Assembly: GCA_011816565.1 (NCBI GenBank)
Contig: GCA_011816565.1_3614.1
DNA: 64,000 nt
Source of the DNA: a phage
Strand: one strand, 5' to 3'
Positions within the stretch are counted from its first letter, which is position 1. The number at the start of each line of letters is the position of its first letter. Of the stretch, positions 28,105-50,705 are shown piece after piece. The translations under genes were made by a program, and so were the position numbers. The notes beneath the pieces were generated by a model. It had not been told where the DNA came from, did no database searches, and saw only the letters and a program-made list of their open reading frames with translations.

Positions 28105-28116
28105 TTTCTAATACCA

Positions 28117-28143
28117 CCCCGCTTCGGCGGGGATTTTCTATTT
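28117..28143 (+). terminator. rho-independent terminator
   Basis: CCCCGC-TTCG-GCGGGG hairpin (identical stem-loop to 1765-1780) followed by ATTTTCTATTT. Confidence 0.6.
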
Positions 28144-28152
28144 GGAGTTATT

Positions 28153-30632: not shown

Positions 30633-30642
30633 GGAGACCAAG

Positions 30643-31848
30643 ATGATTTTCATCTACGAACATTTCAAAACTCGTAAAGAAGCACGTGACCGCCGTGCAG
30701 AACTTGAGAAGAAGGGTTTCACATGTGCCATTGAGAAAGGCGACACAACCTGGACACTGGCAGTTGGTGCCCCAGAGTTGTTCGATCCTGACCGTGACAG
30801 CGTCTGCTACACCCGTGAGGATTTTGAAACCCGTGAAGAGGCCCGTTTATTTAGATATGGGCTGGAAGATAACGGTAAGTACGCCATGATCTTAGACTTA
30901 GGCGAAGGTTCCGTTAAACGTTGGGGCGTGGTATACCCACTGTGTGTTGTTCACGGTGTGGGGTTTACTGGGGTAGCAATCAAGTCAGAAGAACCTTTAG
31001 TAGAAGTCAAAGATCCGGTGCTGGAAGTGGTGAGCAGTGTGTCTCAGCAACAGACTCGAAGCATCGAGCCTTTGGTAGTTATTTGCGGGGAACTCCTCCA
31101 GATCACCTGCAACGAAGGAATTTTTGAAATTCGCCGCAGCGAAAGTGAGGAAGTTTACCAGAAAGTCTTCGACCATATCTCTGTTCAGGAATATGATGAG
31201 GCAATTGGTGAAATCCTTGTCTGGCTGGAACGCAAGAGTGAGTTCACCACACTTGCAGACAACCTGATCATGAAAGATGGTAAGCTCTACTACTACGGTG
31301 TAGAGATGCGATCCACCATTGCAAAGAAAATTGAGAAAGATTATGCAGACGGAACGCTGGATGACCGCTATGTGAAATTCCTCGTTCGCCTGCTACGCAA
31401 TCCTTCTGCAAAATCTGTAAACATGCTCTACGATTTTATGCAGGCCAATGATATTCAGATTGCAGAAGATGGTCGAATCATTTGCTACAAAGGGGTTCAG
31501 TTTAACGGCAGCAAGTGGGTGGATTGGCACAGTGGTAAAGTCCCACAATACCAAGGTGCTTTTGTATCCATGCCTCGTAACTTTGTAGAGGATGATCCTG
31601 AAGCTGCGTGCTCCTATGGCTTACACTGCGCCAGCAAAGAGTATGCAAAGAGCTACGGCACTGTAATGACTGTCATGGTTGACCCTGCAGATGTAGTTAG
31701 TGTGCCATATCAACACAATAGCGCTAAGTGCCGTGCATGCCGCTATGAGATTGTGGTAGCTCCGGAAGCACGCAAAGATGGAGACCCTATTGAATATGTA
31801 GTTGATCGTGACGGTAACACTATCGACATTCTTTACGAGGAGGCGTAA
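30643..31848 (+). CDS. rIIB: rIIB-like protein
   Basis: 401 aa directly downstream of rIIA-like gene; segment FLVRLLRNPSAKSVNMLYDFMQANDIQIAEDG resembles the conserved rIIB core (from memory). Confidence 0.5.
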   Translation: MIFIYEHFKTRKEARDRRAELEKKGFTCAIEKGDTTWTLAVGAPELFDPDRDSVCYTREDFETREEARLFRYGLEDNGKYAMILDLGEGSVKRWGVVYPLCVVHGVGFTGVAIKSEEPLVEVKDPVLEVVSSVSQQQTRSIEPLVVICGELLQITCNEGIFEIRRSESEEVYQKVFDHISVQEYDEAIGEILVWLERKSEFTTLADNLIMKDGKLYYYGVEMRSTIAKKIEKDYADGTLDDRYVKFLVRLLRNPSAKSVNMLYDFMQANDIQIAEDGRIICYKGVQFNGSKWVDWHSGKVPQYQGAFVSMPRNFVEDDPEAACSYGLHCASKEYAKSYGTVMTVMVDPADVVSVPYQHNSAKCRACRYEIVVAPEARKDGDPIEYVVDRDGNTIDILYEEA

Positions 31849-33218
31849 TGGAAAAAGGGCAGTATGATGTAGGCACAGATGCTGCCCTCGTTGCAATCAT
31901 GAGCGGTGAGAATGTCTTCGTTTCAGGACCTGCAGGTTGTGGGAAGACGTATCTCATCAACATGATCCAGTCAATGTATGGAGACTCTTGCATAACGGTT
32001 GCCCCGACAGGGGTAGCCGCTTTAAACGTTAATGGAGCAACAGCACACCGAACCTTCGATCTTGCAGCAGGTGTGAGCATGGAGTCAGACTGGACCGCAA
32101 TAAGGGCAAAAACAGCAAAGCCTTTGAAAAGCAAGGCATTTACCATCCTAATTATCGATGAAATCTCTATGATCCGTGCTGATAAGTTTATAGAGATGGA
32201 TAGGAAACTTCGCTTCCTTCGAAAAAATGACAAACCTTTCGGAGGCATACAGGTCATATTGTTTGGCGATTTTTACCAGGCACCTCCTGTTGTCTCTTCT
32301 ATGGAGAAGGAGGCCTACTTCAACTTCTACCACACAGACCTATGTTGCTATACCGAATCTTGGAAAGAGCTGGACCTTCACAACATAGCCCTAATAGACC
32401 AGTTCCGACAGGAGTCTATTCGATTTGCCACAATGCTCAACTGTGTTCGTGAGGGTCGTCGCATAAAAGAGGTTGTAGCAGAACTTAATGCTCGCTGTTA
32501 CAAAGGCGGTGTACCAACAGACGCTCTCACAATTTGCGCCACCAACAAACAAGCAGAGGAAGTGAACAGAAGGTTCTATGATGCCATCAACGCCCCAGAG
32601 AAGGTATACACTGGTGAAATGAAGGGTAAGTTTCCCTCCACCCTGCCAGTTGAGCAGGAGATGAAGTTGAAAATTGGCATGAAAGTTATGATAACCGCCA
32701 ACGATGTTGACCCGACGCACAAAGTACCTTATTATGTTAACGGAACACGTGCCACAATTGTTAAATTTAAGAACAAGGCGGTGGTGGTAGAGCTTGAAGA
32801 TGGAACACAGGTTGACATAGAGCAGAGGTTGTGGGAAAATAACGAGTATAAGCCATCTCAGAGATACAACATTGCAGAAAGGAAGATGGAGAAGTTTATA
32901 GAGAGGGTAGTGATTGGGTCATACAGGCAACTCCCTCTGAAATCTGGGTATGCCGTAACATCTCATAAAAGTCAAGGACTTACGCTAGATTGTTACAACC
33001 TGGACCTTGGAAAGAACGGAGCTTTCTCTCCTGGGATGACGTATGTTGCTTTGAGTCGGGTTAAGACAATACAAGGAATAAACTTGTTGCGTCCACTAAG
33101 AGAAGTTGACATTATTGTTGACCCGCGAGTCGTAGAGTTTTACAATACAACATTCCCTGACTTAGACAAAATTGTCAGGAAAGATTTTGAAACCAGAGCC
33201 GAAGAGGGGGACGTATGA
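31848..33218 (+). CDS. dda: Dda-like SF1B DNA helicase
   Basis: Walker A (GPAGCGKT), motif Ia (APTGVAA), Walker B (ILIIDEISM), GDFYQAPPV, motif V/VI (YAVTSHKSQGLT; YVALSRVK). Confidence 0.65.
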   Translation: MEKGQYDVGTDAALVAIMSGENVFVSGPAGCGKTYLINMIQSMYGDSCITVAPTGVAALNVNGATAHRTFDLAAGVSMESDWTAIRAKTAKPLKSKAFTILIIDEISMIRADKFIEMDRKLRFLRKNDKPFGGIQVILFGDFYQAPPVVSSMEKEAYFNFYHTDLCCYTESWKELDLHNIALIDQFRQESIRFATMLNCVREGRRIKEVVAELNARCYKGGVPTDALTICATNKQAEEVNRRFYDAINAPEKVYTGEMKGKFPSTLPVEQEMKLKIGMKVMITANDVDPTHKVPYYVNGTRATIVKFKNKAVVVELEDGTQVDIEQRLWENNEYKPSQRYNIAERKMEKFIERVVIGSYRQLPLKSGYAVTSHKSQGLTLDCYNLDLGKNGAFSPGMTYVALSRVKTIQGINLLRPLREVDIIVDPRVVEFYNTTFPDLDKIVRKDFETRAEEGDV

Positions 33219-33556
33219 GTTTGTGGAGAAATATAGTTAACTACGTGTGTGGCAATCCAACTCCTGAAGAGAAGGATGTTGTGATTCACGATTTTACTAA
33301 AAGATCCCGTGAAAAAGATCTACTGTTAACAAAGGTGACTGATAAAGACCCTGCAGTAGGGGACTGGGCAGGTTTTGCGTTTACATCGGACAAATACACC
33401 TTTAACAAAGGTGACTACCTTGTTGTGGATTTTAACGAAGACATTGAGGGTGCTGAACCTTACTATCAGACCCTTATTGTTGCAGGGTGTGTTAATCTAT
33501 CTGCAGGCATGCACAGTTTGATTCTTTTTGAGCTTGACTCTGAAGACCTTGAGTAG
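33215..33556 (+). CDS. hypothetical protein
   Basis: 113-aa ORF overlapping the helicase stop by 4 nt. Confidence 0.45.
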   Translation: MSLWRNIVNYVCGNPTPEEKDVVIHDFTKRSREKDLLLTKVTDKDPAVGDWAGFAFTSDKYTFNKGDYLVVDFNEDIEGAEPYYQTLIVAGCVNLSAGMHSLILFELDSEDLE

Positions 33557-33617
33557 TAAGATGTGAGTATAAAGGGGAGGCCTCCTCCCCACAAAAAACT
33601 AAGGAGAGCACCAAACG

Positions 33618-34943
33618 ATGAGCAAAACCAAATTAGAACTTACCTGGATAGGTAAAAACGAGCGCAAAAAGTTAGAGCCACACATTTTGTTAGAAGATTC
33701 TAGCAAATCTTACCACAGCCAGAAAGTGACCGAAAACGATATTTTTGATAATAAACTGATTTTTGGAGATAACTTATTAGCATTGAAGGCGCTAGAGCAA
33801 GAGTATGCAGGCAAAGTGAAGTGTGTTTACATAGACCCACCATTCAATACCGGGAGGGCTTTTGAGCATTACGATGATAGCCTGGAGCATTCCATTTGGC
33901 TGGGCTTAATGAGGGATAGGTTAGAAATAATTCGTAATCTTCTAAGTGATGATGGGGTAATATTCGTTCACTTAGATGATTGCGAAATGGCGTATTTAAA
34001 AGTTTTGATGGACGAGATTTTTGGTCGTGCAAATCAGTTAAATACCATATCGATGACCACAAATTCCCCTTCGGGATTTAAGGCAACAGGAGCCACAGTT
34101 TTCTCCACAGCAAACTTTTTGCTTGTATATGCAAAAGATCGCACCCAGAAACCGCTTAACAAAATCTATATACCTAAAGGGTATGATACAGGATATAACA
34201 AATACCTATTAAACCCGGATGACCATTATAAAAATTGGACGTGGTGCGGTATTGCCGATGCGTTTGCAAAGGCCAATGGCTATAAAGATGCAAAAGAAGC
34301 CAAGAAAAAACTGCCTGATACATTCGATGATGAATTAGCACAATTCGCAATTGATAATGCAGAACGTGTATTTCAATCTGTTGCAATTGGTGGTGGTGCT
34401 AAAATAAAGAGAAAAGAAACTATCGAGAAGTCAAAGAAAGATAGGGATAAGGTTTATGTACATCCAAATGAGGATGTTGAAGGATTTTATATCGCAAATG
34501 GTAGGCAAATGGTCTTTTACTCCAATAGGCTTTTGGAAATTGACGGTGAGATGCAACCTGCGGAACTAATAACTGATGTTTGGACAGACATTAGTTGGAA
34601 TGGAATAGCAAATGAAGGCGGCGTTAGTTTCAAAAATGGGAAAAAACCAGAAGCGCTTTTGAAGCGGATTTTCGAAATGTGCACGCGAGAAGGCGATTTG
34701 GTATTGGATTCATTCGGTGGTTCGGGAACTACTGCTGCTGTAGCTCACAAGATGAAAAGACGTTGGATCTCAATCGAGCTAGGTGATCATTGTCATACCC
34801 ATATTATTCCGCGCTTGGAAAAAGTGATCGATGGTGAAGATCAAGGGGGTATTTCTAAGTCTGTAAACTGGCAAGGTGGTGGTGGCTTCCGCTATTACAA
34901 ACTTACTCCGACCTTAATTACGAAAGATAAGTCTGATCAATAA
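33618..34943 (+). CDS. DNA methyltransferase (N6-adenine/N4-cytosine class, type III Mod-like)
   Basis: Catalytic motif IV (VYIDPPFNTG) precedes SAM-binding motif I (DSFGGSGTT); strong RBS (AAGGAGAG). Confidence 0.65.
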   Translation: MSKTKLELTWIGKNERKKLEPHILLEDSSKSYHSQKVTENDIFDNKLIFGDNLLALKALEQEYAGKVKCVYIDPPFNTGRAFEHYDDSLEHSIWLGLMRDRLEIIRNLLSDDGVIFVHLDDCEMAYLKVLMDEIFGRANQLNTISMTTNSPSGFKATGATVFSTANFLLVYAKDRTQKPLNKIYIPKGYDTGYNKYLLNPDDHYKNWTWCGIADAFAKANGYKDAKEAKKKLPDTFDDELAQFAIDNAERVFQSVAIGGGAKIKRKETIEKSKKDRDKVYVHPNEDVEGFYIANGRQMVFYSNRLLEIDGEMQPAELITDVWTDISWNGIANEGGVSFKNGKKPEALLKRIFEMCTREGDLVLDSFGGSGTTAAVAHKMKRRWISIELGDHCHTHIIPRLEKVIDGEDQGGISKSVNWQGGGGFRYYKLTPTLITKDKSDQ

Positions 34944-34956
34944 AGAGTACAATCAA

Positions 34957-35262
34957 ATGATGAAACGTTATAAACCATACACTTTTGAAATCGATTTCGA
35001 ACTAGACGATATGTTCACTGTGGAAGCTCAGGCAGTTGTCCAGTTGCCAGACCCAGAGTGCCGTGATTCTGATGTTGACTATTATGGATTTAGACAGATC
35101 ACTGATGTGCATGTTTACCACAACGGTGAAGAGGTGGACTTCCACAAACTGCCAAACGATATGCGCCACTCAATTTACAAACGTGCAGCCCGTGAACTAG
35201 AGTCCTATCTTGATGCAGCGACGACAGCAGCTGCATTTGCCGAAGAAGTGGGAGGTTTCTGA
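34957..35262 (+). CDS. hypothetical protein
   Basis: 101-aa ORF after the methyltransferase. Confidence 0.45.
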   Translation: MMKRYKPYTFEIDFELDDMFTVEAQAVVQLPDPECRDSDVDYYGFRQITDVHVYHNGEEVDFHKLPNDMRHSIYKRAARELESYLDAATTAAAFAEEVGGF

Positions 35263-35657
35263 TGATTACAGATGTGAAGATTGTCCAATACCACTTAACC
35301 AAGTTGGAAGATGCTGAGAAAGAGCTTGCAGAAGTTCTGAATAGTGGATATACTTTGCTATCATGCGCCTGCTCAGACACCTACGCTGTGTGGACACTTA
35401 TCAGGAAGGAAGAGCCTGCAGGGATCTTGGTGCCAAACCCTAAGATTATTAGTGAGGTGGATGACTACCCCCAGGACGGCCTGCCAGAAGGCTGGGAAGT
35501 ATGGGAAGGTGGTGAAAACCCTGCACCAGGTAAGTGGGTAAAATACAAACTACGTAGTGGTGCACAGTACGCTGACTACTCTGATGACCTAGACTGGAGT
35601 CATTCTTCACCAGGATCATCTGCAAGTTCATATGATATCGTTGCTTTTCAGGAATAA
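35262..35657 (+). CDS. hypothetical protein
   Basis: 131 aa; start overlaps upstream stop. Confidence 0.45.
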   Translation: MITDVKIVQYHLTKLEDAEKELAEVLNSGYTLLSCACSDTYAVWTLIRKEEPAGILVPNPKIISEVDDYPQDGLPEGWEVWEGGENPAPGKWVKYKLRSGAQYADYSDDLDWSHSSPGSSASSYDIVAFQE

Positions 35658-35669
35658 GGAGAGGGTATT

Positions 35670-36152
35670 ATGTCAGATTTTATGTGGAAAGTAGGTTACG
35701 CAGCTCCTGAAATGTGTGAGGCTTGCTTTGTGAAAATAGGCCGCGAGGATATCGACAAAGTGATCCTTAAGTTTCGTGATGTGGCTGTGATCGGCAACCG
35801 AGTGCTTAAGCACTTAAAGAATCTGAAGCTCACCAAAAAGAAATTCTTCGGACTTTTCGAAGAGAAAGTTGATGCTTGGACCCATTGCATTCAGGAAGCT
35901 AAATCTCACTACAGTGCTATCGTTACCCCAGAACGGGTAGCCAAGATGGAAGGACTCATCAACAGCACAGAGTTTGAGTGTCTGAAAGCTGCACTCGATA
36001 GTTATCCGAAATGCCTCAAGCACTTGGACAAGTATGTAGAAAAGGATGGGGAAATGTATCTCACCCTGGACGCATATTATGAGATGCAAGAAATTTTAAA
36101 TTTAGATTTGACATTGGTATCCACCGAGTATACAATAGGTATCCGGGTTTAA
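35670..36152 (+). CDS. hypothetical protein
   Basis: 160 aa with RBS (AAGGAGAGGG); followed by terminator. Confidence 0.5.
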   Translation: MSDFMWKVGYAAPEMCEACFVKIGREDIDKVILKFRDVAVIGNRVLKHLKNLKLTKKKFFGLFEEKVDAWTHCIQEAKSHYSAIVTPERVAKMEGLINSTEFECLKAALDSYPKCLKHLDKYVEKDGEMYLTLDAYYEMQEILNLDLTLVSTEYTIGIRV

Positions 36153-39094: not shown

Positions 39095-39829
39095 ATGAAC
39101 GAGTTCAGAGATCACTGTGTAGCCAATCACTTGTGGTCAGAAATATTGGAGTATGACGGTCAAAATCTTTTTTGGAAGATAGACATTCTGGCAGGCAGCG
39201 GTGTAGGATATGTTAAAACTTCAGCAGGCTCCAGAGCTGACAAGGGGCAAGATGCTGATGGCAGGCCTGTGGTTAGTCTAGGAAAGCATTGCACTAAAGG
39301 TGCCCACGTTATAATCTGGGAAATGTTTAACGGTCCTGTACCAGAAGGGTATGAGGTTGACCACATCAAGGAGATAAGGGAAACAGGTGGTGTGGCTGAC
39401 AACAGTATTCAAAATTTGCAACTACTCGAACCTACAGATAACAAAAAGAAAAGTTGCAAGATACCTCGTAGCAACAACAAATCTGGCAGGGTCGGGGTGC
39501 ACTATTCTGAAGAAAGAGAGGCGTGGGTAGCTCAAGGCACAGACTCTGTAGGTGAAAGGGTCTGGCTAGGCCAGTACAGAACTTTTGAAGAGGCAGAGTG
39601 GGCAAGAAAGTTCTTCGAAGATAATGGTTTTTCGCACAAGAGTGGAAGAGCCGTGCAGTATAATAACACCAGCGGTTGCTCAGGGGTGAATTGGGATAAA
39701 ACCCATGAAAGATGGGTAGCCAGAATTTATGTAGATGGTAAAAGGAAATGCCTTGGGTATTTCAAGAACAGGGACGATGCAATAGCTGCAAGAAAGAATG
39801 CTGAGAAGACACAGGAGGAGACAGTATGA
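39095..39829 (+). CDS. HNH homing endonuclease with AP2-type DNA-binding domains
   Basis: HNH core (YEVDHIKEIRETGGVADNSIQNLQLL) and two AP2-like repeats (SGRVGVHYSEEREAWVAQ; SGVNWDKTHERWVARIYVDGKRKCLGYF); free-standing between primase-helicase and polymerase; stop overlaps polymerase start. Confidence 0.65.
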   Translation: MNEFRDHCVANHLWSEILEYDGQNLFWKIDILAGSGVGYVKTSAGSRADKGQDADGRPVVSLGKHCTKGAHVIIWEMFNGPVPEGYEVDHIKEIRETGGVADNSIQNLQLLEPTDNKKKSCKIPRSNNKSGRVGVHYSEEREAWVAQGTDSVGERVWLGQYRTFEEAEWARKFFEDNGFSHKSGRAVQYNNTSGCSGVNWDKTHERWVARIYVDGKRKCLGYFKNRDDAIAARKNAEKTQEETV

Positions 39830-42603
39830 GTAATTGGTGCTTCGATCTGGAGGCCTCCGGGCTCTTGGAAGACCCAGATCTTTATTATCACTGCGGTCTG
39901 TTTAAAGAGCTGAATAAGAACCGTTTTATGCTGTTCCTTCCTCTAAATGACCGCACACACTACTCCGAGGAGGATATAGAGAAGGCTAAGAACTTTATTC
40001 TGGCAAAGAAAACTCTTTATAAAGATTTTGAAGTTCGCATAGCAGATTTTTCGGAGTTGGAAGGTTGGCTTACAGGAAATTCCGACTGGTCACCAACAGC
40101 TTTGAACTGCCATAACTGCTACAGTTATGACTTTATGCTGATGGAGAGATTATCCGGTATTCATTTTGATATGTTCCGTGATCCTAAATGTATGGGGACT
40201 ATCAACGACCACCAGGTTAACCTGTTCGATACGTTGGCGATGAGCCGAATCTTGTGGCCTGATCGCCCTTTACCAAAAGGTTGTCCGGACTCTGTATTCA
40301 ACCCGGTTACTAAGAAAATGCAGCCTGTTGGTCCTCACGGCCTTATGGCATGGGGCTACGCCCTTGGTAACCAGAAAGTTCAAATTGATGACTGGCGCGA
40401 TCTTCCGTTGTGGAAGTATGTGGATCGTGTATTTGAGGACGTTATCATCCAGGAGCTGCTCTGGAAAGAACTGGTAGCGGAATCAAAAGGTGTATTCTAC
40501 GGCAAATCTGACATGCAGAACTTTATGTACGATCCTGCCAAAGAGAAGCCGAAAGGGTTCAAGAAGATCACCTGGAAGAACGCATTACGCCGAGGCATGC
40601 TGCAGCACTTCCTGATGGAGCTGCAGGCCCGTCAGGGTGTGTATTTCGACATAGACGGGGCTATTGCTTTACGTGACCGTTGCGATGCGTGGATGAAAGA
40701 AATAGCTGATCGTGTTGAACCACAACTACCTTTAAAAGAGCTGTCAATGTCTCAGCGGCCTAAGTTCCCTGAAAAGCCGTTTAACCAGGATGGGACAATC
40801 TCCAATAATGGTTGGAAATGGTTAAAAGACAAGCTTGGCTACCCTGTGGACATGAGTGCTTTAGAATTCAAAGCTCCTCCTAAGCGAGCATTTACCTCCA
40901 CAGGAGATGTCAGTAAGATGGGGATAAAATGGTGTGAAGAGATGGGCTGTAAAGACCCAGACAAGATGGCTGATTTCTTGAGAGGTTATATTAAGGGCAC
41001 CTCCACACCACAACCTTTACCTAAAGAGCTGATGGATCAGGCAATAAGCGATCTGCAGCAGAAGCGAATGCCTGACTGCAAGATACCTATGAAAATCAGC
41101 AATCAGGACGATATTAAGCGATACCTGATCAGTGCTGGTTGGCTTCCGACAATGTGGAGAACTAAGGATGTAACTAAAGACAGCAAGAAGAAAGCTCTAC
41201 CTGATGCAGATGTTGATGCACGAGTATATGCATATATGGACGAGCTTTTAGAGTCAGAGTATTGTGACCTGATTATCAACTTCTGGAACAAAACTGATGC
41301 TAAGTTCCAGACAACCGTGCACAAGTTCCGAAGCTTTCCTAACTCCGAAAGGATTAAAAAGGAAGTATTCGGGAAAATACGTAGAAAAGCTAGGGCACTT
41401 ATTACTTCTCCGCAACTGAAAGATACGTTTGGACACCTATGCCCGAATCTTGAAAAATTGAACGGAGAGATGGCTAAAGATATCGTCTTGTGGTTATCAT
41501 TGCGAAACCGCAGATCGGTCCTTGATCCAATCAAGGAGGATAAGGTTGATACTGGTCTTCTTAATCACCCACGTTTGAAGATTGACCATAAGCTTCCTGC
41601 TAAAAGTTCTGGATTAACAAACACTTCCCGACAGAAACACAGTATTTGTGCAAACATGCCTAAACCATCTCCTAAAGTGGTTATGGGTAAAGAGATGCGT
41701 AGTCTGTGGGGTGTTCCTCCAGGATACTTTGAGATCGGTATTGACGGGTCCAACTTAGAGCAGCTTATCGGGGCTTGGGGTGCCTTTGAGTTCGACAACG
41801 GCCTGTATTACGATGTTGTAAGTAACGGGGACGCACACCAAAACAATGCTGAGGCATATACAAAAGTAGCAGGTAGAGAGGTGTCTCGTAACGACGGTAA
41901 ACCTATCACGTATGGGGTTATGTATGGGGCACAAAAAGATAAAGTTGCAGATATGCTGGACATCTCTCCAGAGTTGGGACAAAGGGTAATCGATGCACTC
42001 TGGGATGCCAACCCTGGTCTTAAGGGGCGTAAAGAAGATCTGGAGAAATTCTGGGAAGCAACGGGTAAGAAGTTTATCTACTCTTTTGATGGTCATGCTA
42101 TCTGGACCCGATCTAAACACTCTTTACTTAATGCATACCAACAAAATGGCGGCGCATCGTTGTGTGACTTAGTTGGGATACTCATGCACCATCAAATGGT
42201 GAAGCGTGGGTGGTACGATGAAGGTGTTCGTCGTATTATCTATTACCATGACGAATATCAGCTTCAAGTCCCTGACACACCGAAGTATAAGACTGTGTAC
42301 ACCTTCGACACAATCGAAGAACTGGAAGCATTTAAGGCAGAGCAGGAGGCCAAACTTCATGTGTTCGACGGTCATAAGTACAAAAAGGCACGCAAGGATG
42401 AGGACGGAAACGAAGTGGTTGACAGAGACGGAAACACGGTGTACGATCCTATCCTGAACGATGACGGAAAGCTTGAACTTATCTGGAGCCCTGTGGGTGA
42501 AATGGTGGTGCATTGCTTCTGGCAAGCTTCTAAAATGATGGGCGTCCCGTTCCAGATCACAGGTGAATACTTGTGTGGTCGTAATTGGGGTGATTGTCAC
42601 TAA
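39826..42603 (+). CDS. family A DNA polymerase with 3'-5' exonuclease domain
   Basis: Exo I motif (CFDLEASG), motif A-like (IGIDGSNLEQ), motif B-like (KPITYGVMYGAQ), motif C (YYHDEYQL). Confidence 0.7.
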   Translation: MSNWCFDLEASGLLEDPDLYYHCGLFKELNKNRFMLFLPLNDRTHYSEEDIEKAKNFILAKKTLYKDFEVRIADFSELEGWLTGNSDWSPTALNCHNCYSYDFMLMERLSGIHFDMFRDPKCMGTINDHQVNLFDTLAMSRILWPDRPLPKGCPDSVFNPVTKKMQPVGPHGLMAWGYALGNQKVQIDDWRDLPLWKYVDRVFEDVIIQELLWKELVAESKGVFYGKSDMQNFMYDPAKEKPKGFKKITWKNALRRGMLQHFLMELQARQGVYFDIDGAIALRDRCDAWMKEIADRVEPQLPLKELSMSQRPKFPEKPFNQDGTISNNGWKWLKDKLGYPVDMSALEFKAPPKRAFTSTGDVSKMGIKWCEEMGCKDPDKMADFLRGYIKGTSTPQPLPKELMDQAISDLQQKRMPDCKIPMKISNQDDIKRYLISAGWLPTMWRTKDVTKDSKKKALPDADVDARVYAYMDELLESEYCDLIINFWNKTDAKFQTTVHKFRSFPNSERIKKEVFGKIRRKARALITSPQLKDTFGHLCPNLEKLNGEMAKDIVLWLSLRNRRSVLDPIKEDKVDTGLLNHPRLKIDHKLPAKSSGLTNTSRQKHSICANMPKPSPKVVMGKEMRSLWGVPPGYFEIGIDGSNLEQLIGAWGAFEFDNGLYYDVVSNGDAHQNNAEAYTKVAGREVSRNDGKPITYGVMYGAQKDKVADMLDISPELGQRVIDALWDANPGLKGRKEDLEKFWEATGKKFIYSFDGHAIWTRSKHSLLNAYQQNGGASLCDLVGILMHHQMVKRGWYDEGVRRIIYYHDEYQLQVPDTPKYKTVYTFDTIEELEAFKAEQEAKLHVFDGHKYKKARKDEDGNEVVDRDGNTVYDPILNDDGKLELIWSPVGEMVVHCFWQASKMMGVPFQITGEYLCGRNWGDCH

Positions 42604-45449: not shown

Positions 45450-45815
45450 ATGGAACAAATGAACGATCAAGCGTCGGTTGCGATGAACGAGCAAGAACAA
45501 CCTCAAGAATTTTTCTTAGGGTTAAGTAAAGATCAAGTGTCTCTTCTGCTAGTGCTTTCTTCTTTCATGGGAAGACTTCAGGAGCTCACACAACAGCCAG
45601 AGGCTGAACAATTATTCCAAGCTTTGCGTGAAGAAGAAAAATATCGTCGTTTGGACTATGCCTTAGGTTGGGTAGCTCAACAACGAGATATGCTGATGGC
45701 CCTCTCTGGGACCACAAGTTTTGCAATGGGCCTGCTGGCTCAAGTTCAGGACAAATTAATTCAAGCAGGGTTTGCACACACGGCAAACACTAACGAAGAA
45801 CAAGGAGACAAATAA
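45450..45815 (+). CDS. hypothetical protein
   Basis: 121 aa with RBS (CGGAGA). Confidence 0.45.
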   Translation: MEQMNDQASVAMNEQEQPQEFFLGLSKDQVSLLLVLSSFMGRLQELTQQPEAEQLFQALREEEKYRRLDYALGWVAQQRDMLMALSGTTSFAMGLLAQVQDKLIQAGFAHTANTNEEQGDK

Positions 45816-47086
45816 TGAGCGTTATTCAACAATTTGCTAACCCGATGAATCCGCGTGAAACTGTTTTACTGGCTCACGGCATGATTAAACGTGTCAGCAT
45901 CAAACCTATCAAAGGTGCTGATCCTACAACAGGTATTAAAACCACTGTGTGGCAAGGTAAGAAAATTGAGTCCAGCCACACCATCTCTTTACTGATTTCT
46001 GAACTGGATTCCTCTGATAACCTGCTTCAAGGTGGTGAAGAAGTCTGGATCAGTATGGGTGATAAACTGCTTAAACCGGGTCATCAAGACTCTGTCTCTG
46101 TTAAAATTGATGACAAGTGGGAAACCGTAACGCCAGGATGGATCGTAAATATCCCTTTGAAGGCAAACGAGCATAACGGTAAGACCTATTACAAAGGCTC
46201 ACTGGCTAAGATGGTTAAGCTGGGTGCAGGAGAGGCTCCAGCAGCGACTCAGCAGCAAAAACAGCAACAAGGTGCACAATCACAAGGCCAGAAGCAGAAA
46301 CCTCAGCAGAATGCCAATCAGGACGTTTTACGCATCTATGGTGATGTGACTCAGATTGTTGGCAACGTGGTTACTGTTAATGACCACAAGATTGGCGAAG
46401 GTGCTATGGTTGTCACTGATGAGCAGCTTAAAGACCTGGTGGTAGGTGGTCGTGTTGCAGCCATTGTTGACAAAGACACCGGAAACATTATCAGTGGTTT
46501 CAAAGCCTACCCACCTAAGGCAGAGAACGGCACTCAAGGCTCTGGTGGCAAGCGTAAATCCTCTTACGACCCTATTGGTGTGGAGACGGGGCATAGCATC
46601 AATGCGTTGCAGATCATCCTGGATCGCGGGTTTAAGGTGGACGACCCACTAGGCGTGGCTAAAACACTGCACGTAGTCACCATTGAGCTTAAGAAAGAGT
46701 ATGCTCAAGCCACCAACCGAACTGAAGATGAGGTAGGTGCCAGTGTCGGTAATGCGGTGTTGAACGCTTGTCGCCGTATTGACAAGAAAACGAAAGTTGA
46801 TGATTTTGCAGTGGCAATTACTGCAGAAGCAAAAGATGTCTTGACTAATCTGGCTGAGCCGTTGTACGATTGGATCAAGAACGGTGCTGAGTCCACTGAC
46901 CATCAAGAACCTCAAGCTGCCAAACAGGAAGCCGCTCCACAGCAAAACACTGTAGACGCTCCTCCTGTAAATGATGCGGAAGATGACCCAATGGATCAGA
47001 ATCCAGCACAGTATGACTTCTGTGATGACATACCTTTCGCTCCGGTGGGTTTGCAATATGGCAAAAGTAGAATCCACGCATTGTAA
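45815..47086 (+). CDS. hypothetical protein with SSB-like acidic C-terminal DDIPF motif
   Basis: Two domains joined by a Gln-rich linker; C-terminal acidic tail ...[19 protein letters not shown] followed by 16 extra residues that overlap the start of the downstream nuclease gene. Confidence 0.45.
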
Positions 47087-47681
47087 GAGGTGCATCAAGT
47101 GCGGAGAGGTGAAAAACCTCTCCGAGTTCTACAAACACCCAAAGATGTCTGACGGTCATCTTAATAAGTGCAAAGAGTGTTGTAAGAAGGCCAGTAGGGA
47201 GGCTGACCAGTTTTCCCACGACTCTTCAGAAAAAGGTGTAATACGCGTGTTGTACAAGGCTCAAAAGTGCAACAGCAAGCAAAGAGGTCACCCTCCTCCG
47301 ACTTACACCAAAAAAGAGTTTAAGGAGTGGCTATACCTGAACGGTTACAAAGAGTTGTATGACCAGTGGGTAGCCAGCGGATACGACAAAAGGAAAAAGC
47401 CCTCTTGTGACAGGATAGATGATTTCAAAGGGTACTCTTTTGATAATATCCGTTTAACGACCTGGGGAGAAAATAAAGACAAGCAGACGGAGGATATTCT
47501 GTTGCATAGAAGCACCAGCGGTAGACGGTGTAAAAATGTAAGGAGGTTGGACATGAATGGCAACGTTCTTAAAGAATGGGTATCCCACAATTCTTGTAGA
47601 AGAGAAACCGGAATATGTGTTGATTACTACATTCATGAAAAAATTCCAGCTCCCGATGGATACCTCTATGAATACTTTTAG
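47058..47681 (+). CDS. zinc-ribbon / HNH-like endonuclease (possible homing endonuclease)
   Basis: Start at in-frame ATG (track ORF from 46971). N-terminal Cys pairs (CKRCIKCGE...KCKECC); HNH_3-like core with Arg in place of His ([24 protein letters not shown]). Confidence 0.4.
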
Positions 47682-47696: not shown

Positions 47697-47726
47697 GCCC
47701 TGCCCGAAAGGGTGGGGCATTTTTGT
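47697..47726 (+). terminator. rho-independent terminator
   Basis: Same hairpin as 36159 (GCCCTGCCC-GAAA-GGGTGGGGC) followed by ATTTTTG. Confidence 0.55.
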
Positions 47727-47743
47727 ATAAGGAGATCTGAAAA

Positions 47744-48160
47744 ATGACATTAGAAGATATCATTGTTAAACCTGAGAACTATGACCAATACAACCTGTCA
47801 ACTCAATCTGTAGACCTTGGATGCGCCACGGTCAGTGCGTGGCTGGTTAACGGAAAAGAGCTGGACAAGTGCTTAGAAGCTCACATGTCTATTAACAAGT
47901 TTCTGGATGAAAATACTCACTGGCTTGAGGGTGCAGGAGTATATGCTTCATGGTTGGAGAGTATGGGATTCGACTACCAATCTGAAGAAGGGTGGTGGAG
48001 CTATTTAGCTATCTGTCCAGAGACGCTACAATGCTTCATGAAATACTCTGAAGATTTAGAGTACCGGGCGGTGGTTGATAGTGCTATTGCCCGTTATAGC
48101 CGTAAACCTTTTTCCCACGACATTAAAACTGTGGAAGAGTTTGTTGAAGTTTTCTGTTGA
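47744..48160 (+). CDS. hypothetical protein
   Basis: 138 aa with RBS (AAGGAGA). Confidence 0.5.
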   Translation: MTLEDIIVKPENYDQYNLSTQSVDLGCATVSAWLVNGKELDKCLEAHMSINKFLDENTHWLEGAGVYASWLESMGFDYQSEEGWWSYLAICPETLQCFMKYSEDLEYRAVVDSAIARYSRKPFSHDIKTVEEFVEVFC

Positions 48161-48256
48161 CACAGGTTGAAAGGTGTGCAATTATAACTTCATATGACTG
48201 GAGGACGTGATGAACGAAGAAAACTGGGATGTATAACTAACAGGAGGCCACTGCCC

Positions 48257-48454
48257 ATGATTTATCGAATCCGTGTAAGAGAAGATGCACCAGGCTGTTA
48301 CTTTGACTGGCGTGGGTGGTGGTTTCTCCACCCAATGGATGGACTCACAGATAGAATGCTGGATGCTGCCCTTTATACAGATACCGACATAGAGTATAAT
48401 CTCTATCTGAAGGACGGTATAGATAACGGCCTGTTTGAAGCAATTCCTGTGTAA
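48257..48454 (+). CDS. hypothetical small protein
   Basis: Start at ATG after AGGAGG (track ORF from 48194). Confidence 0.4.
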   Translation: MIYRIRVREDAPGCYFDWRGWWFLHPMDGLTDRMLDAALYTDTDIEYNLYLKDGIDNGLFEAIPV

Positions 48455-48522
48455 GAGACTGTGATAGCCATGTTTTATGATCTTCCTGTAGCACCACCAC
48501 CTGTTGAACCCGGAGAACTAAG

Positions 48523-48948
48523 ATGATCTATGAAATGCCAAAACTGATTCGTGACGATGCCCAAAACGCTCACACCATTATTATGGGCAAACGCATGGAT
48601 ATTATTTGTCATAAAGATTTCTGGGAAGGAAGTTACTTCACAGAGTATTTTGGTAAACTGGACAATGGTCTGCTGATCCAGTTCTACACCGATGCGGAAA
48701 ACAACATTCACTGGGAGTTCGAAACTGAAGATATCCATAAACTTTTCACCTTCCTCGGTATTAAGGTTGAGGCCAAGTTTGAAGAAGGTGAGTGCGACGA
48801 TTGTGGATTCTATGAGGTAACAGATTTCTATCTTCCAAGTGGTGAGAACCTTTACTATGAAAGCCACTTCGGCAACTCCAATATGCCACAGTGCTGGACT
48901 GAGTTTTTTGAAATTGCGGAAGAGGAGCTGGCATACCGTGATTATTGA
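48523..48948 (+). CDS. hypothetical protein (upstream partner of macro-domain gene)
   Basis: 141 aa; stop overlaps the GTG start of the macro-domain ORF. Confidence 0.5.
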   Translation: MIYEMPKLIRDDAQNAHTIIMGKRMDIICHKDFWEGSYFTEYFGKLDNGLLIQFYTDAENNIHWEFETEDIHKLFTFLGIKVEAKFEEGECDDCGFYEVTDFYLPSGENLYYESHFGNSNMPQCWTEFFEIAEEELAYRDY

Positions 48949-49396
48949 TACTGTAGGTGGAGATCTAATCTCCATTTTCAAGAAAGGGTCGGGCCACATG
49001 ATCCACGGTTGTAACTGCTTTCACACAATGGGTGCAGGCATAGCGAAAGACATTGCCCGTGAGTTCCCTCAAGCACTGGCAGCCGACAAAGAGACTGCTT
49101 ATGGTAATCTAGACAAGCTGGGTATGTTTTCTTGTTGGGAGCATTTTGCCAAGAACAGGGTCGTATATGGAATCAACCTGTATACCCAGTTCTACCCAGG
49201 GCCAAATGCTGAATACTTCTCAATCATGAAAGGTTTTGAGCGAGTCAACGAGGTATTCAAAGGTGTGTCATTGCCGTTCTACATTCCTAAAATCGGATGC
49301 GGTATTGGCGGTCTAAAGTGGGAACATGTAGAAGATGTAATTAATCTTGCAACCACAGATATTGATGTGGTTGTAGTAGAGTACAAAAAGTGTTGA
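48938..49396 (+). CDS. TARG1/OARD1-like macro-domain protein
   Basis: GTG start overlapping upstream stop. Signature segments (GDLISIF...HGCNCFHTMGAGIAKDI and PKIGCGIGGLKWEHV) match the TARG1-type macro domain pattern (...C..MGAGIA... and P.IGCGL..L.WE.V). Confidence 0.55.
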   Translation: MIIDTVGGDLISIFKKGSGHMIHGCNCFHTMGAGIAKDIAREFPQALAADKETAYGNLDKLGMFSCWEHFAKNRVVYGINLYTQFYPGPNAEYFSIMKGFERVNEVFKGVSLPFYIPKIGCGIGGLKWEHVEDVINLATTDIDVVVVEYKKC

Positions 49397-49421
49397 CGAC
49401 CATCTTCTGAGGGGATATAGT
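49393..49421 (+). promoter_or_regulatory. sigma70-like promoter (TTGACG-N17-TATAGT)
   Basis: Located after the macro-domain gene, upstream of small ORFs. Confidence 0.4.
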
Positions 49422-49450
49422 CTCCACAACAACTAAGAGAGGAGAGCACT

Positions 49451-49621
49451 GTGGAGACTAAAATCTTAATTCTTGCTGTGGTAGATACAACCGAAGGAGC
49501 TATATTCGAATCTGCAGGAGGGTATTTCTACCTACCATACGGAAAAAGAACTTCCGAGCCAAGTAAAGATTCAATCCTCAAAGTGTTCCCGTGTGTTTTC
49601 TGGCTGGAGATTTTGGTATAA
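49451..49621 (+). CDS. hypothetical small protein (56 aa, GTG start; not in ORF track)
   Basis: RBS GAGAGGAGAG then GTG; below the ORF-track cutoff. Confidence 0.25.
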   Translation: METKILILAVVDTTEGAIFESAGGYFYLPYGKRTSEPSKDSILKVFPCVFWLEILV

Positions 49622-49647
49622 GATTGCAGAGGATTTGTGAGAGAATT

Positions 49648-49842
49648 ATGAGAAACAAGAAAGAGCTTTACTCTGGTGAGTGGATCAACGATCAACAGGT
49701 GGGAGAGGTAACCTGCTTCCGATGTTTTACCAGGTACAATCTTAAAACTGCACCAAAAAGTGTTCCAAAGACTGATGGTTATTACATAAAAGAGCCTTAT
49801 TGCCCAAAATGTAAATGCCGATTATACTGGAGTAACCTGTAA
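49648..49842 (+). CDS. small zinc-ribbon protein
   Basis: Start at ATG (track ORF from 49591); CxxC...CxxC (CFRC...CPKCKC). Confidence 0.4.
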   Translation: MRNKKELYSGEWINDQQVGEVTCFRCFTRYNLKTAPKSVPKTDGYYIKEPYCPKCKCRLYWSNL

Positions 49843-49846
49843 AAGA

Positions 49847-49874
49847 TTGACATCTGAAAACTTCAGTGTATAAT
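49847..49874 (+). promoter_or_regulatory. sigma70-like promoter (TTGACA-N16-TATAAT)
   Basis: Consensus hexamers upstream of 49906. Confidence 0.5.
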
Positions 49875-49905
49875 ATATGCATAAACTAACAGAGAGTGAT
49901 GTATT

Positions 49906-50097
49906 ATGGTAATTTTTAACCGGGATGGTATCATAGTTAGACAGCACCCGTTCCTTGAATACTATCAAATTGAGCAATGGTGCTACGGGGATTGCAGTCA
50001 CTCCTATGGGCAAAGTTGGGGATATCGCACAGTTTTTGAATCAACAGACCTTGACAAAGTAAGACAGAAAGTTTTAGAACTTATTAACAACAAGTGA
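49906..50097 (+). CDS. hypothetical small protein
   Basis: 63-aa ORF downstream of promoter. Confidence 0.4.
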   Translation: MVIFNRDGIIVRQHPFLEYYQIEQWCYGDCSHSYGQSWGYRTVFESTDLDKVRQKVLELINNK

Positions 50098-50106
50098 GTA
50101 TGATAT

Positions 50107-50439
50107 ATGGTAACATTAGAAAGACGTAAAGCTATCGCCGCCACACTGGCAGACATCTTTTGGGATTGCAACTTAAAAGATACTCGAAATTGTGGCGCAT
50201 CTGTAGATGTATTATTCCCACGGCCCACCATTGTTGCAATGGGAAACCTGTTAAACGTAGTGTACGGAGCATGGGACAAAGAAGGTGGATTCTATATCTG
50301 GCAACCTGACTACGGAGCCTGGAAAGAGGTAAGGGGTGCGGATTACTTTGGGCCTACAGTTGCTAAGATGGATGGCTGGGAAATTTATGTTGGAAACGAC
50401 ATGAAGCTGAAAGGCGAGATTGTTTACTGGTTACCTTAA
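50107..50439 (+). CDS. hypothetical protein
   Basis: 110-aa ORF. Confidence 0.45.
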   Translation: MVTLERRKAIAATLADIFWDCNLKDTRNCGASVDVLFPRPTIVAMGNLLNVVYGAWDKEGGFYIWQPDYGAWKEVRGADYFGPTVAKMDGWEIYVGNDMKLKGEIVYWLP

Positions 50440-50459
50440 GAAAGCGCAGGAGATAAAGT

Positions 50460-50705
50460 ATGAGCAAAGGGTGGACATTTGTAGACGGCGTTAAAAACAT
50501 GCCTCTTGGAAAGTATATCGTAGCCATGGCTGATGAGGATGGCAATGTAGATTTCGGAGCTTGCGAGGTTGTTCTTGCAGGATCTGGTAACTATGTGGAC
50601 AAAACCGGGATAATTAACGGTCAGTTCTACTTTGATCACAACCCTGTTGTAGCGTATATGGCTATGCCAGAGTTCAAGTTCCCAAAGGAGGGTGCAGATG
50701 TTTAA
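50460..50705 (+). CDS. hypothetical small protein
   Basis: 81 aa with RBS (GGAGA). Confidence 0.45.
   Translation: MSKGWTFVDGVKNMPLGKYIVAMADEDGNVDFGACEVVLAGSGNYVDKTGIINGQFYFDHNPVVAYMAMPEFKFPKEGADV

What the first reader, a model, noticed from the sequence alone, without database searches (positions are those of the whole stretch)
48523..49396. TARG1/OARD1-like macro-domain gene coupled to an upstream unknown gene: candidate anti-ADP-ribosylation (counter-defence) module
ORF 48938-49396 carries the two signature segments of TARG1-type macro domains (HGCNCFHTMGAGIA and PKIGCGIGGLKWEHV), the same fold class as the DarG antitoxin macro domain that reverses DNA ADP-ribosylation. It starts with a GTG overlapping the stop of a 141-aa gene of unknown function, so the two look like one unit. 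A phage-borne stand-alone macro domain is a plausible way to neutralise host ADP-ribosyltransferase defences. The partner protein has no recognisable motif.
Basis: partly seen in the sequence, partly recalled or inferred. Interest (0 to 1): 0.68.

Follow-up and report, generated by a model that had tools for sequence, protein, structure and literature searches.

The report
Phage AdfM-type macrodomain, unlinked acidic neighbour
This is the rV5-like phage copy of the T4 Tk.4/AdfM macrodomain, an enzyme family recently shown to protect phages from the DarTG2 DNA-ADP-ribosylating defence. The upstream gene is an unrelated acidic orphan that only happens to overlap it in this phage genus.

Summary
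A 141-aa ORF (48523-48948) and a 152-aa GTG-started macrodomain ORF (48938-49396) overlap by 11 nt in a Vequintavirus (rV5-like) genome.

**Macrodomain**
- The fold is a confident macrodomain (AF2 pLDDT 94). Its best structural matches are TARG1, Poa1p, DarG and SCO6735.
- It is not a TARG1 equivalent. TARG1 Lys84/DarG Lys80 is an invariant Gln84, and TARG1 Asp125 is Gly124. This is the arrangement of SCO6735, which removes ADP-ribose from thymidine in DNA using Gln85.
- It is a full-length homologue of T4 Tk.4 (39% identity, same PHROG 335, same HGCNCFHTMG and NLYTQ motifs).
- Tk.4 was named AdfM in 2025 as T4's anti-DarTG2 factor. rV5 has carried the "tk.4" label since its original annotation.
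- The counter-defence reading is therefore well supported, but it is already known in kind.

**Upstream gene and the two-gene module**
- The two-gene module idea is not supported.
- About 2,800 phage records carry the macrodomain, but only 177 carry the partner.
- In Krischvirus the two genes lie 9 kb apart. In a third lineage the order is reversed.
- The partner is a very acidic orphan (net charge -20) with no sequence or structural relatives.

**Dispensability**
- Both genes are dispensable in Bas54 on K-12.
- One natural genome has deleted both.

The parts
48938..49396 (+). Macrodomain gene (152 aa, GTG start), orthologue of rV5 gp204 'tk.4' and bas54_0092; member of the T4 Tk.4/AdfM family
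   Evidence: PHROG 335 at E 5.5e-59, the same family and region as T4 Tk.4 at E 1.3e-65. BLASTP to T4 Tk.4 gives 39% identity, E 3e-43, full length. AF2 pLDDT 94.4. Foldseek top hits are TARG1, Poa1p, DarG and SCO6735.
49004..49015 (+). Codons for His23-Gly24-Cys25-Asn26. Asn26 is equivalent to DarG Asn22 and SCO6735 Asn27; the H-x-C-N segment is shared with SCO6735 and BT1257.
   Evidence: HMMER alignments to 5e3b, 2fg1 and 5m3i. N26 is invariant in 60 homologues. The role of Asn27 in SCO6735 is described in PMC9411070.
49187..49189 (+). Codon for Gln84 (motif N-L-Y-T-Q). It occupies the position of the catalytic Lys80 of DarG and Lys84 of TARG1, and equals Gln85 of SCO6735.
   Evidence: Alignments. 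Invariant in 60 homologues, including T4-type and Krischvirus Tk.4. SCO6735 Q85A is inactive.
49286..49312 (+). Codons for P117-K-I-G-C-G-I-G-G125, the glycine-rich diphosphate-binding loop. Gly124 sits where TARG1 has the catalytic Asp125.
   Evidence: Profile alignment to TARG1 4j5r, PRIGCGLDRLQW against PKIGCGIGGLKW. P117, G120 and G122 are invariant.
48523..48948 (+). Upstream 'partner' gene (141 aa; PHROG 8157; rV5 gp205, bas54_0091). An acidic orphan protein with a conserved C-terminal segment G-E-C-D-D-C-G..Y.V.D..LPSG..Y.E.HFGN.N.P..W.EFF.
48938..48948 (+). 11-nt overlap between the 3' end of the partner gene and the GTG start of the macrodomain gene
   Evidence: Read directly from the sequence. 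The same overlap is annotated in A51.2, rV5 and Bas54.
48920..48927 (+). Shine-Dalgarno-like AAGAGGAG, 10 nt upstream of the GTG. The macrodomain gene has its own ribosome-binding site.
   Evidence: Read directly from the sequence.
48678..48687 (+). First copy of the 10-bp direct repeat CCAGTTCTAC; left endpoint of a natural 508-bp deletion that fuses the partner and macrodomain genes
   Evidence: Three copies in the window against 0.15 expected. Fusion protein P0015 is on a 135.5-kb Vequintavirus contig.
49186..49195 (+). Second copy of the direct repeat CCAGTTCTAC; right endpoint of the same deletion. It overlaps the Gln84 codon.
49648..49842 (+). 64-aa zinc-binding protein gene (Pfam PF23903, PHROG 4864). 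In Krischvirus its 77%-identical homologue overlaps the stop of the macrodomain gene, so it travels with the macrodomain more consistently than the upstream gene does.
   Evidence: Pfam E 7e-22. BLASTP 77% identity to the Brandy gene. Gene order in L004, L010 and L011.
49451..49621 (+). 56-aa ORF (PHROG 15268, unknown function) between the macrodomain and zinc-binding genes. It is annotated in other Vequintavirus records; tblastn found it only in the two Vequintavirus loci examined.
   Evidence: PHROG E 2.7e-42. tblastn hits only in L001 and L006.
47697..47718 (+). Terminator-like hairpin with a T-run upstream of the gene run. Together with sigma70-like sites at 48157-48185 and 49847-49874 it brackets a short, probably early, transcription unit.
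   Evidence: Consensus scan only. rV5 annotates the promoter equivalent to 49847-49874 as P205.
48475..48999 (-). Antisense 174-aa ORF; not a gene
   Evidence: 17 non-synonymous against 3 synonymous codon differences from rV5.

Best explanation
The 152-aa protein is a stand-alone ADP-ribosyl-glycohydrolase of the T4 Tk.4/AdfM family. It is probably made early in infection from a host-type promoter.

Its most likely job is to strip ADP-ribose from thymidine bases that a host DarT2 toxin (the DarTG2 defence) puts on single-stranded phage DNA, so that replication can proceed.

Chemically it should work like Streptomyces SCO6735 rather than like DarG or TARG1:
- Gln84, held by Asn26, positions the distal ribose.
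- The Gly-rich loop (residues 117-125) binds the diphosphate.
- Hydrolysis goes through an activated water, not through a catalytic lysine.

A fast-turnover Gln-type enzyme would suit a phage protein that lacks DarG's toxin-binding domain.

The upstream 141-aa gene is a separate, very acidic accessory protein of unknown role. It is not needed for the macrodomain's function, and its overlap with the macrodomain gene is a packing feature of this genus.

Shown: fold, family membership, active-site residues, gene distribution, and dispensability on K-12. Inferred: substrate, target defence, timing of expression and mechanism.
For: - **Family membership.** 39% identity to T4 Tk.4 over the full length, E 3e-43. 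Both fall in PHROG 335 over the same profile region. The motifs HGCNCFHTMG and NLYTQ are shared.
- **T4 genetics.** tk.4 was the single T4 hit in a transposon screen on a DarTG2 host, and its clean deletion sensitised T4. It was named AdfM.
- **Independent phage example.** Chimallivirus macrodomain AdfM removes DarT2-made ADP-ribose from DNA in vitro (PMC13309987).
- **Fold.** AF2 pLDDT 94.4, pTM 0.89. Foldseek gives TARG1 at E 8.5e-10 and also hits both DarG macrodomains, Poa1p and SCO6735, with TM 0.7-0.79.
- **DarG similarity.** NCBIfam and PADLOC DarG models match the macro part at E 1e-11 to 1e-12.
- **Active site.** Gln84 aligns with DarG K80, TARG1 K84 and SCO6735 Q85, and Asn26 aligns with N22/N27. 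SCO6735 cleaves thymidine-linked ADP-ribose on DNA, needs Gln85 and Asn27, and turns over faster than DarG or TARG1 (PMC9411070).
- **Accessory behaviour.** bas54_0092 (98% identical) tolerated insertions at 31 of 31 TA sites on K-12, as does T4 tk.4 at 45 of 46. Natural deletion and frameshift alleles exist.
- **Independence from the partner.** 2,822 against 177 phage records. No partner homologue was found in the 5-6 kb fetched around tk.4 of T4 and of the T4-like phage ime09. The genes are 9 kb apart in RB49.
Against: - No experiment has tested a Vequintavirus macrodomain against DarTG2. The Bas54 library was run only on K-12, CFE303 and CFE311.
- The T4 result is from a preprint, is genetic only, and concerns a protein that is 39% identical.
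- The same residues (His23, Thr30 and the Gly loop) also resemble the active segment of the ADP-ribose-1''-phosphate phosphatase Poa1p. Profile scores do not separate DarG, BT1257, SCO6735, TARG1 and Poa1p; E values run from 1e-14 to 4e-12.
- The window protein lacks the longer lysine-bearing mobile loop that the SCO6735 paper credits for processivity on DNA.
- Early expression rests on consensus promoter matches only.
Confidence: 0.66

Rival explanations
1. The macrodomain is a general eraser aimed at a different ADP-ribosylated target. Candidates are host or phage proteins, RNA modified by toxins such as CmdT, or 5'/3'-phosphate ends of nucleic acids. DarT2-modified DNA would be only one substrate, or not the main one, in this phage.
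For: The ALC1-like class is promiscuous. SCO6735 also acts on auto-modified PARP1, and TARG1 and Poa1p are equally good structural matches. The family is in 2,822 phage records across many hosts, which may be wider than DarTG2 alone explains.
Against: In T4 the only defence phenotype found for tk.4 was DarTG2. No ADP-ribosyltransferase, NADAR or Nudix gene was found among the roughly 80 window ORFs scanned. That covers only 64 kb of about 137 kb.
Confidence: 0.15
2. It is a metabolite-processing enzyme, as the database label 'phosphatase' implies. It would be a Poa1p-like ADP-ribose-1''-phosphate phosphatase or an O-acetyl-ADP-ribose deacetylase, clearing NAD-derived by-products during infection.
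For: Poa1p structures are among the top fold and profile hits (6lfr at E 4e-9; 6lfu at E 3.6e-12). The segment IHGCNCFHTMGAGIA aligns with Poa1p IHSCNCNGSWGGGIA. Poa1p mutant entries target a His and a Ser in that region (entry titles). PHROG 335 and RefSeq call it a phosphatase.
Against: The 'phosphatase' label comes from the old A1pp motif name, not from an assay (note in the T4 record). No 2'-phosphotransferase or RNA ligase domain was found among the window ORFs scanned. The T4 genetics point to defence evasion.
Confidence: 0.09
3. One reading: the 141-aa protein and the macrodomain form one two-component module. The partner might bind or inhibit the toxin, like the C-terminal domain of DarG, or it might target the enzyme to DNA.
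For: There is an 11-nt overlap in every Vequintavirus examined. Both genes are still within 1.6 kb of each other in a more distant relative (L008). T4's NADAR factor AdfN is reported to need an unknown helper, so helpers are conceivable.
Against: - The partner is absent from over 90% of genomes that carry the macrodomain.
- T4 AdfM acts without it.
- In RB49 it abuts dam, 9 kb from tk.4.
- In L012 it overlaps a QueC-like gene.
- In L008 the order is reversed, with four genes between.
- The macrodomain gene has its own Shine-Dalgarno sequence.
- There is no similarity to DarG models or to any solved structure.
Confidence: 0.08

Closest known systems
T4 Tk.4 / AdfM (anti-DarT factor, macrodomain; bioRxiv 10.1101/2025.11.20.689424)
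   Same: Full-length homologue: 39% identity, E 3e-43, 152 against 155 aa. Same PHROG 335, same HGCNCFHTMG and NLYTQ motifs, stand-alone macrodomain in a run of small non-essential genes of a large virulent E. coli myovirus.
   Different: Different neighbours: vs and tk.3 in T4, the acidic orphan and a 56-aa ORF here. No phenotype has been measured for the Vequintavirus protein.
Krischvirus (RB49-like) Tk.4
   Same: 67% identical, the closest relative outside Vequintavirinae. The 64-aa zinc-binding gene that overlaps it is 77% identical to window 49648-49842. rV5's annotators already noted several RB49-like genes clustered here.
   Different: In Krischvirus it sits in the T4-like vs-tk.4-tk context, and the partner homologue is 9 kb away, next to dam.
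Streptomyces coelicolor SCO6735 (PDB 5E3B) and Bacteroides BT1257 (2FG1)
   Same: Same fold class. The same Gln replaces the catalytic Lys, and the same H-x-C-N and G-C-G-x-x-G-G segments are present. SCO6735 hydrolyses thymidine-linked ADP-ribose on ssDNA and protects against DarT.
   Different: About 22% identity. The window protein lacks SCO6735's longer lysine-bearing mobile loop. SCO6735 is a cellular, not a viral, protein.
DarG2 antitoxin macrodomain (Thermus aquaticus 5M31/5M3E, M. tuberculosis 5M3I)
   Same: Macro fold with TM 0.72-0.76. Conserved Asn (N22 / N26). The presumed substrate is the same.
   Different: Catalytic Lys80 is Gln here. There is no C-terminal DarT-binding domain and no adjacent DarT. 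The NCBIfam DarG score is 44 bits against a cut-off of 250.
Chimallivirus AdfM (PhiKZ gp104; PMC13309987)
   Same: A phage-encoded stand-alone macrodomain that counters DarTG2 by removing ADP-ribose from DNA.
   Different: That protein keeps the DarG-type Lys (K78) and is imported into the phage nucleus. The direct sequence relationship to the window protein was not tested here.
Human TARG1/OARD1 (PDB 4J5S)
   Same: Best Foldseek match: E 8.5e-10, TM 0.73-0.79, similar size.
   Different: Both residues of the Lys84/Asp125 catalytic dyad are missing (Gln84, Gly124). 22-23% identity.

Membership tests
Macro domain superfamily (Pfam PF01661) | Sequence match above the curated threshold, and the three-layer alpha/beta/alpha macro fold | tested here: met
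   Pfam 25.9 bits against a cut-off of 22, on the N-terminal 32 residues only. AF2 pLDDT 94.4. 164 PDB matches at E 0.001 or better; the 50 listed are natural macrodomains or designed enzymes grouped with them.
T4 Tk.4 / AdfM family (PHROG 335) | Full-length homology to T4 Tk.4 and membership of the same phage protein family | tested here: met
   BLASTP 39% identity, E 3e-43, residues 1-150 against 1-152. PHROG 335 at E 5.5e-59 here and 1.3e-65 for T4 Tk.4, over the same profile span 54-205.
T4 Tk.4 / AdfM family (PHROG 335) | Conserved active-site motifs H-G-C-N-C-F-H-T-M-G and N-x-Y-T-Q | tested here: met
   G24, N26, C27, M31, N80, Y82, T83 and Q84 are invariant in 60 homologues, and H23, C25, F28 and G32 are at least 90% conserved. 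All the motif positions except C25 are identical in the 7-sequence alignment with ime09 and Krischvirus Tk.4.
T4 Tk.4 / AdfM family (PHROG 335) | Needed by the phage to plate on a DarTG2 host | not testable with these tools
   Published only for T4. The Bas54 library was not run on DarTG2.
TARG1/OARD1 | Catalytic dyad Lys84 + Asp125 | tested here: not met
   In the profile alignment to 4j5r, Lys84 aligns with Gln84 and Asp125 with Gly124.
TARG1/OARD1 | ALC1-like macro fold | tested here: met
   Top Foldseek hit 4j5s, E 8.5e-10, TM 0.73/0.79.
DarG2 antitoxin (type II TA DarTG) | Catalytic Lys80 in the macrodomain | tested here: not met
   In the alignment to 5m3i, NFPTK aligns with NLYTQ.
DarG2 antitoxin (type II TA DarTG) | Conserved Asn22 in the macrodomain | tested here: met
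   Asn26 aligns with it and is invariant.
DarG2 antitoxin (type II TA DarTG) | C-terminal DarT-binding domain, and a DarT gene next door | tested here: not met
   The protein is 152 aa and matches only positions 8-144 of the 338-position DarG model, at 44 bits against a cut-off of 250. The neighbours are small unknown ORFs with no defence-system match.
SCO6735/BT1257-type (Gln-type) DNA ADP-ribosyl hydrolases | Gln at the catalytic-Lys position, the Asn that locks it, and the H-x-C-N segment | tested here: met
   Gln84, Asn26 and His23 align with SCO6735 Gln85, Asn27 and His24.
SCO6735/BT1257-type (Gln-type) DNA ADP-ribosyl hydrolases | Extended mobile loop with Lys89, credited for DNA processivity | tested here: not met
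   The window has Q-F-Y-P-G-P-N where SCO6735 has Q-H-G-M-K-T-G-S-K-G-A-P, so the loop is shorter and carries no lysine.
SCO6735/BT1257-type (Gln-type) DNA ADP-ribosyl hydrolases | Hydrolysis of thymidine-linked ADP-ribose on ssDNA | not testable with these tools
   Needs a biochemical assay.
Poa1p-type ADP-ribose-1''-phosphate phosphatase | Fold, plus the His/Ser-containing N-terminal active segment | tested here: inconclusive
   Fold and profile matches are good. His23 and Thr30 align with the Poa1p His and Ser. The same residues are shared with DNA-acting members, so this does not discriminate.
Conserved two-gene module (partner + macrodomain) | Co-occurrence and conserved adjacency across lineages | tested here: not met
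   177 against 2,822 phage records. 9 kb apart in RB49. Reversed order and 1.1 kb apart in L008. The partner sits beside a QueC-like gene in L012.

The most novel reading that the evidence does not exclude
The acidic 141-aa orphan (PHROG 8157) could be a counter-defence or DNA-transaction protein in its own right, with a fold not yet seen in solved structures.

Points that fit this reading:
- It is strongly acidic (net charge -20).
- It has an invariant C-x-x-C...E.H-F-G-N segment.
- In three lineages it overlaps the start of an enzyme that acts on DNA bases: the de-ADP-ribosylating macrodomain, Dam methylase, and a QueC-like 7-deazaguanine enzyme.

These features would fit a DNA mimic or an inhibitor or adaptor that works alongside DNA-modification enzymes. 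A smaller novel point is that T4-type phage AdfM enzymes use the Gln-based, lysine-free chemistry of SCO6735, unlike the Lys-type chimallivirus AdfM and DarG.
Probability: 0.12. Interest if true: 0.55.

Novelty: new member of a known kind. Interest (0 to 1): 0.27.

Why it matters
The result gives a probable function, evasion of DarTG2, to a gene carried by essentially all rV5-like phages. These phages are widely used in E. coli O157 and therapeutic cocktails. The same family is in about 5.6% of sequenced phage genomes, where most records still call it a "hypothetical protein" or "phosphatase".

It also shows that this phage family has the Gln-type active site rather than the DarG/TARG1 lysine. 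That matters for anyone designing mutants or inhibitors.

It adds no new principle. Phage macrodomains that undo DarT2 were reported in 2025-2026. The upstream orphan is an unexplained protein, but there is no evidence that it belongs to the system.

Tried and rejected
- **Partner function by homology.** Pfam, NCBIfam, PADLOC and PDB sequence-profile searches gave nothing. PHROGs placed it only in the unannotated family 8157.
- **Exhaustive HMMER search of 1.84 billion representatives with the partner.** Only 11 hits. One was a 3,189-aa protein with seven matching stretches. It proved to be a VWD/C8/TIL cysteine-rich mucin-type protein, so I rejected it as compositional similarity to the C-x-x-C-G segment.
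- **A third iteration with the partner alignment** added only Krischvirus-type sequences.
- **A phage ADP-ribosyltransferase, NADAR, Nudix or RNA-repair partner in the window** that might suggest another role. None was found among about 80 ORFs. Only 64 kb of about 137 kb could be checked.
- **The longer ORF from the GTG at 48839 and the antisense ORF 48475-48999.** Both rejected: the first on homologue N-termini, the second on substitution pattern.
- **Literature searches.** One errored on a short term. One returned mostly irrelevant papers. No paper was found that tests a Vequintavirus on DarTG2.
- **Assigning the protein to one subclass by score.** This failed. DarG, BT1257, SCO6735, TARG1 and Poa1p all score within E 1e-14 to 4e-12, so the assignment rests on active-site residues.
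Full report
**What the window is.** The 2.8-kb stretch around the finding is 96-99% identical to about 116 rV5-like E. coli myoviruses (Vequintavirus). These include phiWec191, A51.2, rV5 itself and several BASEL phages. The finding lies 6 kb downstream of the DNA polymerase gene (39826-42603). It sits in a long same-strand run of small genes, nearly all of unknown function. A terminator-like hairpin at 47697-47718 and sigma70-like sites at 48157-48185 and 49847-49874 bracket it. The last site corresponds to rV5's annotated promoter P205. These are consensus matches only, so early expression is an inference.

**Checking the observation.** Both ORFs are present as described.
- The macrodomain gene starts at the GTG at 48938, 11 nt inside the upstream gene. 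It has its own AAGAGGAG box 10 nt upstream.
- The start is confirmed by homologue N-termini and by three independent annotations.
- Differences from rV5 concentrate on third codon positions in both + frames.
- The 174-aa antisense ORF accumulates 17 non-synonymous against 3 synonymous changes and is not a gene.

**The macrodomain.**
- Pfam Macro passes its threshold weakly. PHROG 335 ("phosphatase") matches at E 5.5e-59.
- The DarG models of NCBIfam and PADLOC match the macro part at about E 1e-11 to 1e-12, far below the full-length cut-off.
- An AlphaFold2 model built from 60 homologues is confident (pLDDT 94.4, pTM 0.89).
- Foldseek against the PDB returns TARG1, Poa1p, both DarG macrodomains, BT1257 and SCO6735, with TM 0.7-0.79.

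**The active site is not TARG1-like.** In HMMER alignments of the protein and of its family profile, the catalytic Lys of DarG (K80) and TARG1 (K84) aligns with Gln84, within the motif N-L-Y-T-Q. This Gln is invariant in 60 homologues. TARG1 Asp125 aligns with Gly124. Asn26 corresponds to DarG Asn22.

This is the pattern of SCO6735 and BT1257. For SCO6735, PMC9411070 reports the following:
- It hydrolyses thymidine-linked ADP-ribose on DNA.
- Activity is lost completely in Q85A and almost completely in N27S.
- It turns over faster than DarG or TARG1.
- It protects against DarT.

The window protein lacks SCO6735's longer lysine-bearing loop.

**Family identity.**
- tblastn finds the family in 2,822 of 50,697 phage records, largely large virulent myoviruses of enterobacteria, Pseudomonas, Vibrio and Acinetobacter. 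In T4-like phages the hit is gene tk.4.
- The window protein is 39% identical to T4 Tk.4 over its full length (E 3e-43). Both carry HGCNCFHTMG and NLYTQ and fall in PHROG 335 over the same span.
- rV5's own record names the gene tk.4 and notes its similarity to RB49 Tk.4.
- The closest relative outside Vequintavirinae is Krischvirus Tk.4, at 67%.

**What is known about the family.**
- A 2025 preprint reports that tk.4 was the single T4 gene depleted on a DarTG2 host and that its deletion sensitises T4. The gene was named adfM.
- A 2026 paper shows that a chimallivirus macrodomain, also called AdfM and retaining the Lys, removes DarT2-made ADP-ribose from DNA.
- Earlier work had shown that T4 resists DarTG2 independently of AdfA and AdfN.
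- In the same preprint's Bas54 (MaxBurger) data, bas54_0092 is 98% identical to the window macrodomain and took insertions at 31 of 31 TA sites. bas54_0091 is 96% identical to the partner and took insertions at 21 of 23. Both are non-essential on K-12, and neither is depleted on the clinical isolate CFE303.
- Bas54 was not tested on DarTG2.

**The upstream gene.** It belongs to PHROG 8157 (function unknown). It has only 11 cluster representatives among 1.84 billion proteins, and one of those is a spurious cysteine-rich mucin.
- Its AF2 model is confident despite having only eight sequences (pLDDT 90.2).
- It is strongly acidic: net charge -20, pI 4.3, conserved across homologues.
- It has an invariant C-terminal segment with C91-x-x-C94, E113 and H115-F-G-N.

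**Is it a partner?** No conserved linkage was found.
- It occurs in 177 phage records against 2,822 for the macrodomain.
- In RB49 it is ORF064c, abutting dam, 9 kb from tk.4.
- In a metagenomic relative whose macrodomain is 75% identical, it lies downstream, four genes away.
- In another contig it overlaps a QueC-like gene.
- T4 AdfM works without it.
- By contrast, the 64-aa zinc-binding gene at 49648-49842 is 77% identical to the gene that overlaps Krischvirus tk.4. A macrodomain-plus-zinc-protein block therefore appears to have moved between the two phage groups.

**Natural loss alleles.** A 135.5-kb Vequintavirus contig carries a 508-bp deletion between two copies of CCAGTTCTAC (48678 and 49186). 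It fuses partner residues 1-55 to macrodomain residues 85-152. Other assemblies carry an internally deleted and a frameshifted macrodomain. This fits an accessory gene under intermittent selection. These are single metagenomic assemblies.

**Verdict.** The macrodomain is a new member of a known kind. It is an AdfM-type, probably Gln-dependent, DNA ADP-ribosyl-glycohydrolase, most likely serving against DarTG2 (confidence about 0.66).

The rivals cannot be excluded without assays: a broader eraser role (0.15), Poa1p-like metabolite processing (0.09), and an obligate two-gene module (0.08). The upstream protein remains unexplained. Its acidity and its repeated position just upstream of DNA-base-acting enzymes are leads, not findings.

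Noticed in passing
window 48678-48687 and 49186-49195; L015 2501-2866: A full-length (135.5 kb) Vequintavirus assembly, ERR11560567, has a 508-bp deletion between two copies of CCAGTTCTAC. It creates a 121-aa in-frame fusion of partner residues 1-55 with macrodomain residues 85-152, a natural double knockout. Other assemblies carry an internally deleted (P0017) and a frameshifted (P0049) macrodomain.
   Followed up: partly
window 45815-47086: This 423-aa protein of unknown function (PHROG 4477) has a Gln-rich low-complexity middle. Its counterpart at the same position in Bas54, bas54_0087 (same 1,272-nt length), is classed as essential in the HIDEN-SEQ data (8 of 57 TA sites hit). It is an essential gene with no annotation, 1.4 kb upstream of the finding.
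   Followed up: no
window 46971-47681: An HNH / endonuclease-VII-like homing endonuclease gene overlaps the 3' end of that essential gene. It is present in rV5 and Bas54 but absent from A51.2 and from L015, where the essential gene is 408 aa. The metagenomic protein P0129 is a chimera of this endonuclease's N-terminus and the C-terminal domain of the partner family.
   Followed up: partly
window 49648-49842; L004 3446-3640; L010 3446-3640: A 64-aa phage zinc-binding protein (Pfam PF23903) is 77% identical to the Krischvirus gene that overlaps the stop codon of tk.4. rV5's annotators also noted further RB49-like genes here. This suggests exchange of a small gene block between Krischvirus and Vequintavirus.
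   Followed up: partly
L003 3501-3932 (RB49), L012 514-951, window 48523-48948: Partner-family genes overlap or abut the start of three different enzymes that act on DNA bases: Dam methylase, a QueC-like protein, and the macrodomain. With only three cases this may be chance in tightly packed early regions.
   Followed up: no
window 47700-50500 compared with GenBank MG065654, MG065666 and 14 others: Sixteen records named 'Campylobacter phage' (host C. jejuni) match this E. coli Vequintavirus region, the best at 99% identity. The host labels look doubtful.
   Followed up: no
window 17000-35700 (ORFs not pinpointed): The Pfam scan found a DUF2201 metallopeptidase/VWA-like protein and AAA-type ATPase domains. 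In Bas54 a MoxR ATPase gene (bas54_0063) was reported as needed against the predicted defence system DS-28. I did not check whether the window's genes are its orthologues.
   Followed up: no
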